Below, piece by piece: positions 9,001 to 17,071 of a stretch of DNA of 17,071 bases; positions within the stretch are counted from its first letter, which is position 1; every line of letters starts with the position of its first letter. Where the stretch lies: positions 1 through 17,071 of the IMG/VR virus record IMGVR_UViG_2695420569_000026; one strand, 5' to 3'. The stretch comes from a virus. Taxonomy: Duplodnaviria > Heunggongvirae > Uroviricota > Caudoviricetes. The position numbers are program-made.

Positions 9001-12000
9001 CGATGCATCCTCTGCTGAAGTATCAGCATTTGCGGCGCTCGCTTCCGCCTTACTGGCTGATATGCCGGCATTCCTCGCGGACGTCTCTGCTTCTCCGGCA
9101 TTCTTCTTCGCCTCCTCTGCGTGACGCGCTGCTTCTTCCACCATCAGTTCAAAACGACGCAGTGCCTCCGGACGGACGTCATCCTCCGACATGGCACCGA
9201 GAAAATCATTCAGCGTCCCCGGTTGAGAATCTTCATACACGGTGATGGTCCCGGCATGTGACGGCGGGAATCCTTCCACCAACAGAATGACGCTGTACTG
9301 ACCGTACTCAACGTCCATGCTGTAACGACCGGCTTCATCCGGATTTTCAGAGGCCACCGTGTTCACCACCACCGTGGCGCTGTTACGTCTGGCTTTCAGT
9401 TGAATGGTGCAGTTCTCTACCGGTTTTCCTGTGCCGTCTTTCAGTACACCTGAAATCTTTACTGCCATATTCACCCCACAAAAAAGCCCGCCTGAACCGG
9501 CGGGCTGTCATAACACTGTGTTACCTGGCTAATCAGAATTTATAACCGACACCCACGATGAAACCGTCAGTGCGCCAGTCGCCACTGCCGGAGCCTTCAT
9601 AAGCAATATCAATGGCCACGGATTCGATCGGGTTAAACTGCACGCCAGCTCCCCACGCCAGAGACGTGTTGCTGTGGCGACCGTCATCACTTCCGGTCAG
9701 CACATCATGCGTTTTCCCCTTGTTGTCAGTTACGCGGAGATAATCCCCGGAGAAAGTCGACACACGGCTGTAAGCCACACCCGCCATCGCATACGCGCTG
9801 AACCATTCATTCACGCGCACAGACGGCCCCGCCATTACGCTGAACCAGCGGTTACGCACGGAATCTTCATGCCAGCGGGTATCGCTGTAACGGGTAATCT
9901 GGCGATTCCTGTCTCCTGCATAGCTGAATGACGTCACCAGCCCCAGCGTGTCCGTGAATTCATAACGGTATTTCACGTTAATCCCGTTAAGATTATCGCT
10001 ACCGGGAGCGTTCGTCCGGGCATGAAGATACCCCGCGCTCAGCGTGGCCTGCTGCTCAGACGCCCATGCAGGCGCACCGGATACGGTCAGATAAATGGCT
10101 GCGGACAAAATGGCGGCATAAAGTTTACGCATAATTACCTCTCGCTTTTCTGCAATAAAAAAGGCGTCATTCCTGACGCCCTTTATTGGGGTTATAAATA
10201 TTTCAACGAATACTGATGCCGGAAGCAGCTTTTTTGGTCACAATCACCGTACAGTCGGTGATATTGCCTGCCCCCTGATTGCCTTTCTGGAAAATCTTAA
10301 ACTCCAGAGTGACGCTACCACCACCACTAGGCATATCAATAACTGCACTGTAACTACCGGGAATGGCCCCTTTAGTTTCTCTGGATGCGATTAATACGCC
10401 GTTTTTGCGAACTTCAAAACCATAACCCGTGTATCGCGTGCCTCCTGGGTTATTTCCGCTCCCCGGATCGTCATACGCTATACCGTTAAAAATAATGGGC
10501 GGAATAATAATCTGGCGGTCAAAGTTATGATCATCGCTGATGGTGACTGTAACCGTACCGTTTGGTGTTTCCGTGTTACCCCACGTACCGACTTTTTTCG
10601 GGAAGGCTTTTGATACAGCTTTAACGAAATCCCCTCTGACCTGGGTCGCCTCCAGCATGCCCTTAATCGTACAGTTCTGGTTAATCGTGACATTGTTGAG
10701 CGCTCCTGAGTTCGCATTCACACTGCCACTGATATCCGCATTTTTCGCCGTCAGTCGCCCGTCTGGTGTCAGGGAAAATGCCGGAGGATTACCGCCGCTG
10801 GTAATGGTGGGAGCCGTCAGATATTTCAGGAACACTTCATTCATGAATATCTGATCGCCCTGACCAACAAACATCGGCTTTGTGTTGCCATTCGCAGGAT
10901 TAATCATCGCAATCCTGTCTGCTGCCAGCAGCACCTGACTCTGCATGCCGTCGGGGGTGTTCTCAATACCGGCACCGATACCCGCAATATAAAGGCGTCC
11001 GTCCTGCATCTGCTGCAGCTTCACTGCCCACATGCTGTTCAGGTTATTATTTGTATCAACCTGAACCTTCTGTATCTGCTGGATCGCTGCACTCTGGTCT
11101 TCCAGTTTCTTATTGACGGTCTGTGTTATTTCATTGCTGACATCCGTTATGGACGTCCTGATTTCAGTCAGGTCAGGCGCAAGCTGACCGTTATCAATCT
11201 GCGTCCACAGCTCCTGAGCCAGATGGGTTTTCCCTATCTCGCCTTTGAAAAAATCCAGATAGCCGGATGCATCATCACTCGGCTGACCAACAGCCTCCAC
11301 GAATGCCGATTTGCCAACGGTGTTCACACTGCGGATATAAAAGTAATAATCATGGCCCGGTTTGATATTGATACTGGCGGCTATCCAGTACAGCCCCGTG
11401 CCAAGGTAGCGGGCTGTGGTTTCAACCTGCCTGATATCGGTAATCCGCGTTTCCGAAAACCAGAACTCAAACTGTACCGTCGGGTCATACACCGCAAGAC
11501 GCGGGACCGCTGTTATCTGAAAATAGCCCGGTGTCAGCTCAATCGTGGCGGGTACCGCAGGTGCATTAATCCTGAACGTGGTGGTGGCCGGTTCCCCCTG
11601 CTGGCCATAACTGTTAATTGCCCTGACTGTCAGGGTGTATTCCCCGAGCGGCAGACCACTGAAACGATGCTCTGTATCCGCAGTGATGGCGGTGGTCACC
11701 AGACGGCTGTCTTCTCCGCTTCCGTTGGTCAGGCGCAGACTGAAGCGCACACCCTTCACCACCCGCGGCGTGTCCCATTTCGCCTGTGCCAGATACTGAT
11801 CAGCTAATCGTGATGCCTGCAGTGGCTTTCTTCATCACCACAACCAGCAAATCGCTGATACTTGCTGTGGGATACCAGTTATTTACCAGCCATGCTGACA
11901 CCGAAAACTCCAGTGTCATGTGACCGTGACCGGCAGGCATATCAATAACGCCACTGTAAATCAGCGTATTATCCAGCGCGGTACGGTTATAAATTTCAGC

Positions 12001-15000: not shown

Positions 15001-17071
15001 GGCTGTCCTGACCGCTTCCACTGGTCAGGCGCAGACTGAAGCGCACACCCTTCACCACCCGCGGCGTGTCCCATTTCGCCTGCGCCAGATACCGGCCGTC
15101 AGCTGCGCTCACCTCCACCGTCAGGTGCTGCACTGCCGGTGGGATGACGCTGTTCAGGGAACCTGACTGCGGCTCAAAGCGGGCACCGTTATCCACGATG
15201 GCTTCTTTTTCCGGTACGTGCTGCACCGCCGTGATGGCAAAGGTGCCGTCCGTGTTTTCCCGGATGGAGACACAGCGGAACAGGCGACGGCGCAGTGACG
15301 GCAGGGAGAGTCCCCACACCCCGTATGTCTCCACACCATCAGGCAGGGTACTGACCTGTATCCGGTCCGGCGCGGGGTGTGCGGTGATGTCCACACTCAC
15401 CGGCTTACCGCTGCCGTTAATCAGGTTCACCGCCGATGTACCTGTCTCCGGCAGGGTAGCATTTTTCGCCGTCAGTCGCCCGTCTGGTGTCAGGGAAAAT
15501 GCCGGAGGATTACCGCCGCTGGTAATGGTGGGAGCCGTCAGATATTTCAGGAACACTTCATTCATGAATATCTGATCGCCCTGACCAACAAACATCGGCT
15601 TTGTGTTGCCATTCGCAGGATTAATCATCGCAATCCTGTCTGCTGCCAGCAGCACCTGACTCTGCATGCCGTCGGGGGTGTTCTCAATACCGGCACCGAT
15701 ACCCGCAATATAAAGGCGTCCGTCCTGCATCTGCTGCAGCTTCACTGCCCACATGCTGTTCAGGTTATTATTTGTATCAACCTGAACCTTCTGTATCTGC
15801 TGGATCGCTGCACTCTGGTCTTCCAGTTTCTTATTGACGGTCTGTGTTATTTCATTGCTGACATCCGTTATGGACGTCCTGATTTCAGTCAGGTCAGGCG
15901 CAAGCTGACCGTTATCAATCTGCGTCCACAGCTCCTGAGCCAGATGGGTTTTCCCTATCTCGCCTTTGAAAAAATCCAGATAGCCGGATGCATCATCACT
16001 CGGCTGACCAACAGCCTCCACGAATGCCGATTTGCCAACGGTGTTCACACTGCGGATATAAAAGTAATAATCATGGCCCGGTTTGATATTGATACTGGCG
16101 GCTATCCAGTACAGCCCCGTGCCAAGGTAGCGGGCTGTGGTTTCAACCTGCCTGATATCGGTAATCCGCGTTTCCGAAAACCAGAACTCAAACTGTACCG
16201 TCGGGTCATACACCGCAAGACGCGGGACCGCTGTTATCTGAAAATAGCCCGGTGTCAGCTCAATCGTGGCGGGTACCGCAGGTGCATTAATCCTGAACGT
16301 GGTGGTGGCCGGTTCCCCCTGCTGGCCATAACTGTTAATTGCCCTGACTGTCAGGGTGTATTCCCCGAGCGGCAGACCACTGAAACGATGCTCTGTATCC
16401 GCAGTGATGGCGGTGGTCACCAGACGGCTGTCTTCTCCGCTTCCGTTGGTCAGGCGCAGACTGAAGCGCACACCCTTCACCACCCGCGGCGTGTCCCATT
16501 TCGCCTGTGCCAGATACTGACCGTCAGCCGCGCTCACCTCCACCGTCAGGTGCTGCACTGCCGGTGGAATAACGCTGTTCAGGGAACCTGACTGCGGCTC
16601 AAAGCTGGCCCCGTTATCCACAATGGCTTCTTTTTCCGGTACGTGCTGCACCGCCGTGATGGCAAAGGTGCCCTCCGTGTTTTCCCGGATGGAGACACAG
16701 CGGAACAGGCGACGACGCAGTGACGGCAGGGAGAGTCCCCATACACCGTATGTCTCCACACCATCAGGCAGGGTGCTGACCTGTATCCGGTCCGGCGCGG
16801 GGTGTGCAGTGATGTCCACACTCACCGGCTTACCGCTGCCGTTAATCAGGTTCACCGTGGCGGCACCGGTCTCCGGAAGTGTCACTTCACGGTCCAGCGT
16901 CAGGGTGCGGGTGGCAGCATCAATGGACAGGACACGTCCGCCGGTCATGGTCCCGGCATAGTCGTTATCACAGATTTCAATGATGTCACCGGGTGTGTGA
17001 CGCAGCCCCTGTGACCCGAGCGTGAAATCCACCGTCTGCGTTTCCAGCTGTCCGGTCTTTATCACCCACAG

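What the first reader, a model, noticed from the sequence alone, without database searches (positions are those of the whole stretch)
10203..17071. Tandem array of four J 3' modules: possible cassette store for host-range switching, recent unequal recombination, or assembly artefact
From high to low coordinates there are four co-oriented modules. The first (15459-17071+) is common region plus variant-1 body with no receptor-binding domain. The second (14169-15455) is common region plus variant-2 body with no receptor-binding domain. The third (11800-14082) is complete with receptor-binding domain 2, and the fourth (10203-11797) is complete with receptor-binding domain 1. A 1.06-kb stretch is duplicated with no differences at the sites checked (offset 4721 bp), and a 1.29-kb stretch is near-identical (offset about 1717 bp). 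All repeats are direct, so a single homologous deletion would put the main J frame in register with either receptor-binding domain: loss of about 3.14 kb for domain 2, or about 4.72 kb for domain 1. The current arrangement encodes a J with no receptor-binding domain. I see three explanations: a silent-cassette arrangement, the product of unequal crossing-over between J genes of co-resident lambdoid prophages, or a mis-assembly of near-identical J genes from different prophages. I do not recall a comparable array being described for lambdoid J genes.
Basis: partly seen in the sequence, partly recalled or inferred. Interest (0 to 1): 0.8.

Follow-up and report, generated by a model that had tools for sequence, protein, structure and literature searches.

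The report
Scaffolding artefact, not a J array
The apparent tandem array of four phage tail-tip (J) gene ends is four separate pieces of a short-read draft assembly strung together by a scaffolder across single-N gaps that had been overwritten with a base in the window, so it is an assembly artefact and not a host-range switching device.

Summary
The repeats are in the window as described: 1,062 bp at 100% identity (offset 4,721) and 1,294 bp at 97% (offset about 1,717). The array itself is not real.

The window is the entire 17,071-bp contig CYAW01000085.1 of draft assembly GCA_001286145.1. The public record differs from the window at only three positions, 15458, 14092 and 11799. There the record has 'N' and the window has 'A'. 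These three Ns sit exactly at the three module junctions.

So the "array" is four sequence blocks chained by a scaffolder:
- Blocks a and d overlap by about 1,061 bp at 100%. Merged, they give an ordinary J–lom, 98.3% identical in one piece to O157:H7 493/89.
- Blocks b and c are fragments of two other J alleles, of the kind carried by co-resident lambdoid prophages.

Further evidence against a real array:
- A sister assembly has the same blocks and three single Ns, but different a|b and b|c breakpoints, although the shared sequence is essentially identical.
- Block b carries a flipped 91-bp J fragment fused at a 12-nt shared word.
- No junction occurs in 5,426 complete E. coli genomes, 50,697 phage records or IMG/VR.

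Interest is low.

The parts
15459..17071 (-). Block a: fragment of J allele 'J1' (reference J nt 1345-2957). It starts at the contig end and has no receptor-binding domain because the block simply stops.
   Evidence: mapping to O145 RM12581 J. (97.8% to O157 493/89 J).
15458..15458 (.). Scaffold gap 1. 'N' in CYAW01000085.1, 'A' in the window.
14093..15457 (-). Block b: fragment of a second J allele 'J2-prime' (reference J nt 1534-~2820, window 15457->14167), plus a chimeric tail.
   Evidence: (98.3% to J genes of other prophages in complete genomes).
14093..14182 (+). Inverted J fragment (J nt 1064-~1154, sense on the + strand), fused to block b through the 12-nt shared word CCACGCCGTTAT. In natural J genes the same 91 bp lie in normal orientation 32 bp upstream of where block c starts.
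14092..14092 (.). Scaffold gap 2. 'N' in the record, 'A' in the window.
11800..14091 (-). Block c: 3' 2.3 kb of a third J allele 'J2' (J nt 1186 to the stop codon at 11800-11802) with receptor-binding domain type 2.
   Evidence: 97.6-97.9% to J of O26 H19 and others. (PF12421).
11799..11799 (.). Scaffold gap 3. 'N' in the record, 'A' in the window. It matches the J1 base by chance, which extends the '100%' repeat by one base.
10203..11798 (-). J part of block d: J1 nt 1898 to the stop codon, with receptor-binding domain type 1. Its first about 1,061 bp (10738-11798) are identical to the last 1,061 bp of block a (15459-16519), so a and d overlap rather than follow each other.
9533..10132 (-). 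lom (Ail/Lom outer-membrane protein), the normal downstream neighbour of J. In other genomes the identical protein follows a single 1163-1164-aa J.
1..9474 (-). Rest of block d: side tail fibre genes, nleL (5320-7668), espN (1328-4729) and an IS2-family transposase fragment at the contig end (33-785, + strand).

Best explanation
The 'array' is a scaffolding artefact in a short-read draft assembly. The strain is an EHEC/EPEC-type E. coli that evidently carries at least three diverged J alleles, of the kind found in co-resident lambdoid prophages. These alleles share long identical stretches. The assembler broke the J genes into pieces at points where alleles become identical. A paired-read scaffolder then chained four pieces (a, b, c, d) and left a single N at each join. 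Blocks a and d belong to one J gene, or to two alleles identical over the shared 1.06 kb, and overlap by about 1,061 bp. Blocks b and c are fragments of two other alleles, wrongly interleaved because their flanks are repeats. When the window was prepared, each N was replaced by 'A', so the joins looked like real sequence. Shown directly: the Ns at the junctions, the a/d overlap, the variable breakpoints and the absence of the junctions elsewhere. Inferred: the exact software behaviour (graph breaks, negative-gap joins) and that b and c sit in other prophages of the same genome.
For: (1) The window is the whole contig CYAW01000085.1 of GCA_001286145.1. The record and the window differ at only three positions, all N in the record, at window 15458, 14092 and 11799. 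These are exactly the three module junctions. (2) Deleting the 4,721 bp in silico gives a sequence that aligns in one piece over 100% of its length at 98.3% to the J-lom of O157:H7 493/89. A further 3,347 genomes cover at least 80% of it. (3) Sister assembly GCA_001286205.1 (contig CYBE01000123.1, L022) has the same four blocks and three single Ns, and the shared sequence is 100%, 100% and 99.98% identical. Its breakpoints differ. Block a' ends at J nt 2832, not 2957. Block b' runs from J nt 1092 to 2723, not from 1534 to ~2820, and has no inverted tail. Block b' therefore contains 442 nt that would have to fit into the window's 1-N gap. (4) Block b ends in a flipped 91-bp J fragment joined at a 12-nt shared word. 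In natural J genes that fragment lies just upstream of block c's start, in normal orientation. (5) The starts of blocks d and b lie exactly at the edges of 41-45-nt or longer stretches where the alleles are identical. That is where a graph assembler breaks contigs. (6) No place in 5,426 complete E. coli genomes or 50,697 phage records spans any junction. All best hits collapse onto a single J. The only IMG/VR hit to a junction pattern is the sister contig itself, Ns included. (7) The identical Lom protein follows a single 1163-1164-aa J in every finished genome inspected. Other assemblies with the identical NleL break their contigs before J.
Against: Two assemblies give the same block order a-b-c-d and the same c|d join. 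A real structure would also produce that. It is equally expected when the same pipeline runs on near-identical genomes. I could not inspect the reads, so the absence of read support across the Ns is inferred, not shown. I could not identify the assembly software for this record. The end of block a (J nt 2957) does not coincide with a visible convergence among the alleles present in the scaffold.
Confidence: 0.93

Rival explanations
1. A real tandem arrangement produced by unequal or illegitimate recombination between J genes of co-resident prophages. The Ns would mark only tiny unresolved gaps.
For: The same block order and an identical c|d join appear in two sister assemblies. EHEC-type genomes carry many J alleles that could recombine (median 3 and up to 27 matching places per genome).
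Against: The a|b and b|c breakpoints differ between the two assemblies although the sequence is identical. Block b' extends 442 nt beyond the point where the window has a 1-N gap. Blocks a and d overlap perfectly and rebuild a normal J. There is an inverted 91-bp fragment at one join. No junction occurs in any finished genome or phage record.
Confidence: 0.04
2. A silent-cassette store for host-range switching. Homologous deletion between direct repeats would bring the J frame into register with receptor-binding domain 1 or 2.
For: Only the geometry in the window as supplied: direct repeats whose recombination would restore a full J.
Against: Everything listed against a real array applies here too. 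In addition, no invertase or recombinase, no reverse transcriptase and no other switching machinery appears among the called genes; the only recombination enzyme is a truncated IS2 transposase at the far contig end. Deletion would be irreversible. The junctions fall at an arbitrary frame shift and at a flipped fragment, not at designed cassette borders.
Confidence: 0.01
3. An artefact of another kind, such as chimeric library molecules or a mis-join by a gap-closing step, rather than scaffolding of repeat fragments.
For: The internal fusion in block b has no N and uses only a 12-nt shared word. That looks more like an overlap-merge or gap-closing error than a scaffold gap.
Against: The three main joins are explicit gap characters. 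This rival concerns only the mechanism of the artefact and does not change the verdict.
Confidence: 0.02

Closest known systems
Lambda-type host specificity / central tail fibre protein J of EHEC/EPEC lambdoid prophages (J-lom-stf followed by effector genes)
   Same: Each block is ordinary J sequence (Pfam Ig_J, Ig_J_second, Phage_Tail_Tip, Ig_GpJ_C). Merged blocks a+d give a normal J-lom 98.3% identical to O157:H7 493/89. The flank (lom, stf, nleL, espN) is 99.0% identical to the potB-side prophage of O145:H28 RM12581, where a single 1158-aa J is present.
   Different: Nothing biological. Only the assembly differs.
Repeat-induced scaffold mis-joins in short-read draft assemblies of multi-prophage E. 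coli
   Same: Gap characters lie at every join. The flanks overlap. Breakpoints depend on the assembly. Block ends lie where alleles become identical. The contig ends fall in repeats (J 5' part and IS2). GapFiller-type tools leave N where a gap is not closed (PMC6733440).
   Different: The specific software used for this record could not be established.
Genuine phage host-range switching systems (Mu Gin/G segment, P1 Cin, e14 Pin inversion; Bordetella phage BPP-1 diversity-generating retroelement). These are recalled from general knowledge, not tested against sequences here.
   Same: Alternative receptor-binding C-termini lie near one tail-fibre gene, which is what the array superficially resembles.
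   Different: Those systems use inverted repeats plus a site-specific invertase, or a reverse transcriptase plus a template repeat. None of these is present here, and the cassettes are not shown to be contiguous.

Membership tests
Scaffolding/assembly artefact | Gap characters (N) at the joins in the primary record | tested here: met
   N at L013 1614, 2980 and 5273, which are window 15458, 14092 and 11799. These are the only differences between the record and the window.
Scaffolding/assembly artefact | Joins are not reproducible: breakpoints differ between assemblies of the same sequence | tested here: met
   L022 versus the window: the a|b and b|c breakpoints differ by 125-442 nt while the shared blocks are 100% identical. 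The c|d join is the same in both.
Scaffolding/assembly artefact | Flanking blocks overlap, and collapsing them gives the ordinary structure | tested here: met
   About 1,061 bp of 100% overlap between a and d. The merged sequence aligns in one piece at 98.3% to a natural J-lom.
Scaffolding/assembly artefact | Structure absent from finished genomes | tested here: met
   No spanning place in 5,426 complete E. coli genomes or 50,697 phage records. IMG/VR holds only the sister contig itself.
Scaffolding/assembly artefact | No reads or long molecules span the joins | not testable with these tools
Lambda-type J tail tip protein | J domain set, including the C-terminal receptor-binding domain, adjacent to lom | tested here: met
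   Precomputed Pfam hits PF24421, PF24489, PF09327 and PF12421 on the 758-aa and 519-aa products. DNA maps to lambda J and O145 J.
Programmed tail-fibre switching system (invertase shufflon-type or DGR) | Dedicated recombinase/invertase or reverse transcriptase next to the cassettes | tested here: not met
   The called genes of the whole contig are J fragments, lom, stf, nleL, espN and an IS2 transposase fragment (rve domains) 9 kb away.
Programmed tail-fibre switching system (invertase shufflon-type or DGR) | Cassettes contiguous on one DNA molecule | tested here: not met
   Every cassette border is an N in the record.

The most novel reading that the evidence does not exclude
The scaffold order seen in two sister assemblies reflects a real chain of J 3' fragments upstream of lom in this E. 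coli lineage. That would be a product of illegitimate recombination among prophage J genes which could collapse by homologous deletion to either of two receptor-binding domains.
Probability: 0.03. Interest if true: 0.6.

Novelty: not a real feature. Interest (0 to 1): 0.04.

Why it matters
For phage biology this is a negative result. There is no evidence for a J cassette store, and the locus is an ordinary effector-carrying lambdoid prophage tail end. It does matter for the scan itself. The window preparation replaced N with A, which turned three scaffold gaps into apparently contiguous sequence and created a striking false structure. Windows from draft assemblies should keep or flag gap characters. 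Repeat arrays at contig ends in multi-prophage genomes should be checked against the primary record before they are interpreted.

Tried and rejected
- **Whole array in complete E. coli genomes and phage records.** All hits collapse onto one J.
- **Junction-spanning queries 11500-14500 and 14000-15700.** No spanning place was found.
- **Exact look-ups of the junction-dependent ORF products.** They occur only in the source contig and one sister assembly. That sister contig proved informative because it contains Ns.
- **IMG/VR scans for junctions with 0-30 unknown bases.** The only hit was the sister contig mirrored in IMG/VR.
- **De Bruijn-graph cycle through shared k-mers.** I rejected this for the three main joins because there is no shared sequence at them. 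It fits only the block boundaries.
- **Replication-based complex rearrangement.** I considered this to explain the inverted 91-bp piece. It became unnecessary once the Ns were found.
- **Literature search for the accession and its assembly pipeline.** The accession search gave only an irrelevant hit. A possible link to the Sanger/GEMS EPEC set (ERP001141, bioRxiv 10.1101/032151) is unverified and is not used as evidence.

Full report
**Observation.**
- A self-BLAST gives 10738-11799 = 15459-16520 at 100% over 1,062 bp (offset 4,721).
- It gives 12450-13743 ~ 14167-15457 at 97.0% over 1,294 bp (offset 1,717/1,714).
- It gives 12316-13932 ~ 15458-17071 at 83%, plus weaker cross-matches.
- The repeat finder agrees.
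- On the - strand there are three successive J-like ORFs (14108-17065+, 11800-14082, 10203-11762) followed by lom at 9533-10132.
- Mapping to a full-length J from the equivalent prophage of O145:H28 RM12581, and to lambda J, places the four modules at J nt 1345-2957, 1534-2820, 1186-3477 and 1897-3477.

**The junctions looked odd.** Each joins a 3' J position to a more 5' one with no homology.
- The first is in frame (…[12 protein letters not shown]…).
- The second shifts frame and terminates after 19 codons.
- The third puts mid-J sequence directly after the stop codon of the preceding module.
- One base, 15458, belonged to neither flanking alignment.

**Comparative searches.**
- The left flank (1-10198: IS2 fragment, espN, nleL, side tail fibre, lom) is 99.0% identical to an effector-carrying lambdoid prophage next to potB in O145:H28, O157:H7 and O55:H7. 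A single 1158-aa J follows lom there.
- No complete E. coli genome (5,426 genomes) and no phage record (50,697) holds the array. Every best hit maps the 7-kb query back onto about 2.5 kb of a single J.
- Queries spanning the junctions (11500-14500, 14000-15700) behave the same way.
- Removing the 4,721 bp between the identical repeats gives a sequence that aligns in one piece, 100% coverage, at 98.3% to the J-lom of O157:H7 493/89.
- Module 3 is 97.6-97.9% identical to a J allele found in O26 H19 and many other strains. There it is followed by the usual intergenic region, lom and stf.
- Module 2 is 98.3% identical to yet another J allele.
- Modules 2 and 3 differ at 36 positions plus 2 gaps over 1,294 bp. 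At least three distinct J alleles are therefore represented.

**The decisive result.**
- An exact look-up of the NleL protein showed that the window is the entire 17,071-bp contig CYAW01000085.1 of draft assembly GCA_001286145.1, reverse-complemented.
- Comparing the public record (L013) base by base with the window gives exactly three differences: L013 positions 1614, 2980 and 5273, which are window 15458, 14092 and 11799. The record has N and the window has A on the + strand.
- These are precisely the three module junctions. The four "modules" are thus four sequence blocks joined by a scaffolder with single-N gaps. The window preparation overwrote the gap characters.
- The stray base at 15458 is explained. 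So is the apparent 1,062nd identical base at 11799, which is a chance match.

**A second assembly confirms it.**
- The 519-aa product of module 4 occurs elsewhere only in sister assembly GCA_001286205.1 (contig CYBE01000123.1, 7,347 bp, L022).
- That contig has the same four blocks in the same order and also three single Ns, at 1447, 3069 and 5362.
- The shared block sequence is essentially identical (1446/1446, 1180/1180, 4277/4278).
- Two of the three breakpoints differ. Block a' stops at J nt 2832, not 2957. Block b' runs from J nt 1092 to 2723, not from 1534 to ~2820, and lacks the inverted tail.
- Block b' therefore contains 442 nt of upstream J sequence that would have to sit inside the window's one-N gap. 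Block a contains 125 nt that would have to sit inside L022's gap.
- The blocks are overlapping, parallel alleles and not neighbours.
- The IMG/VR hit to the c|d junction pattern is this same contig, Ns included. The a|b pattern has no hit.

**Further signs of an artefact.**
- The no-N fusion inside block b joins J nt ~2820 to the reverse complement of J nt ~1166-1064 through the 12-nt shared word CCACGCCGTTAT.
- In natural J genes those 91 bp lie in normal orientation 32 bp upstream of the first base of block c. This is a small upstream piece placed backwards.
- Block d starts exactly where J1 and J2 become identical for at least 45 nt; the base before differs, T versus C.
- Block b starts immediately after a 41-nt stretch in which J2-prime and J1 are identical. 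These are the places where a graph assembler breaks contigs.
- The contig's two ends lie in repeats, the conserved J 5' part and an IS2 fragment.
- Other assemblies carrying the identical NleL break their contigs in the tail-fibre/lom region.

**Mechanism.**
- Shown: the joins are gap characters, the flanks overlap, the breakpoints depend on the assembly, and the structure is absent elsewhere.
- Inferred: the strain carries three or more lambdoid prophages whose J genes share long identical stretches. The assembler fragmented them. Read pairs falling in shared sequence linked fragments of different alleles. The scaffolder, finding no overlap at joins with small or negative estimated gaps, left one N.
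- From my own knowledge, SSPACE-type scaffolders behave this way. PMC6733440 states that GapFiller leaves N where a gap cannot be closed.
- I could not establish which software made this record.

**Comparison and verdict.**
- What is really at this locus is an ordinary lambda-type J followed by lom, stf and the effector genes nleL and espN.
- Nothing supports a switching system. No invertase, other recombinase or reverse transcriptase appears among the called genes, and the cassettes are not contiguous.
- The residual possibility that the scaffold order reflects a real chain of J fragments rests only on the same order appearing in two assemblies made from near-identical genomes. I put it at about 3-5%.
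- Novelty: not a real feature. Interest: very low, apart from the methodological warning about replacing N in windows taken from draft assemblies.

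Noticed in passing
window 15458, 14092, 11799: The window differs from its public record (CYAW01000085.1) only in that three 'N' gap characters were replaced by 'A' on the + strand. This preprocessing hides scaffold gaps from a sequence-only reader and can create false structures in other windows too.
   Followed up: yes
window 14093-14182: A 91-bp J fragment in inverted orientation is fused without any N to the end of block b through a 12-nt shared word (CCACGCCGTTAT). It is probably an overlap-merge or gap-closing error inside a 'contig', separate from the N-marked joins.
   Followed up: partly
window 959-1023 and 3528-3592: A 65-nt inverted repeat (86% complementary, 2.5 kb apart). 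One arm lies inside espN. The other lies between the IS2/GogB-fragment region and espN. Its origin is unknown.
   Followed up: no
window 8389-8692 (within tail-fibre ORF 8155-9474, - strand): Seven degenerate copies of a 43-nt unit at spacings that are multiples of 9. They correspond to collagen-like Gly-X-Y repeats in the side tail fibre N-terminal protein. Several long antisense ORFs here (e.g. 7870-8778 +, 8424-9245 +) are probably by-products of this composition.
   Followed up: no
window 1-10198; L001: The effector genes espN and nleL lie downstream of the tail-fibre genes, and the contig ends in a truncated IS2-family transposase. The same module is 99.0% identical in O145:H28, O157:H7 and O55:H7, where it sits next to potB together with espK and NleB/GogB fragments.
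   Followed up: partly
L024 6108-6635 (E. coli O26 strain H19): A sodC (Cu/Zn superoxide dismutase) gene is inserted between the tail assembly gene and J in the prophage that carries the J2-type allele.
   Followed up: no
L010 and L011 (GCA_037081965.1), about 6203-10001: In two of the three prophages of this genome that carry the identical Lom, no J gene product is on record although the space for it is present. It may be a pseudogene or a look-up limitation.
   Followed up: no
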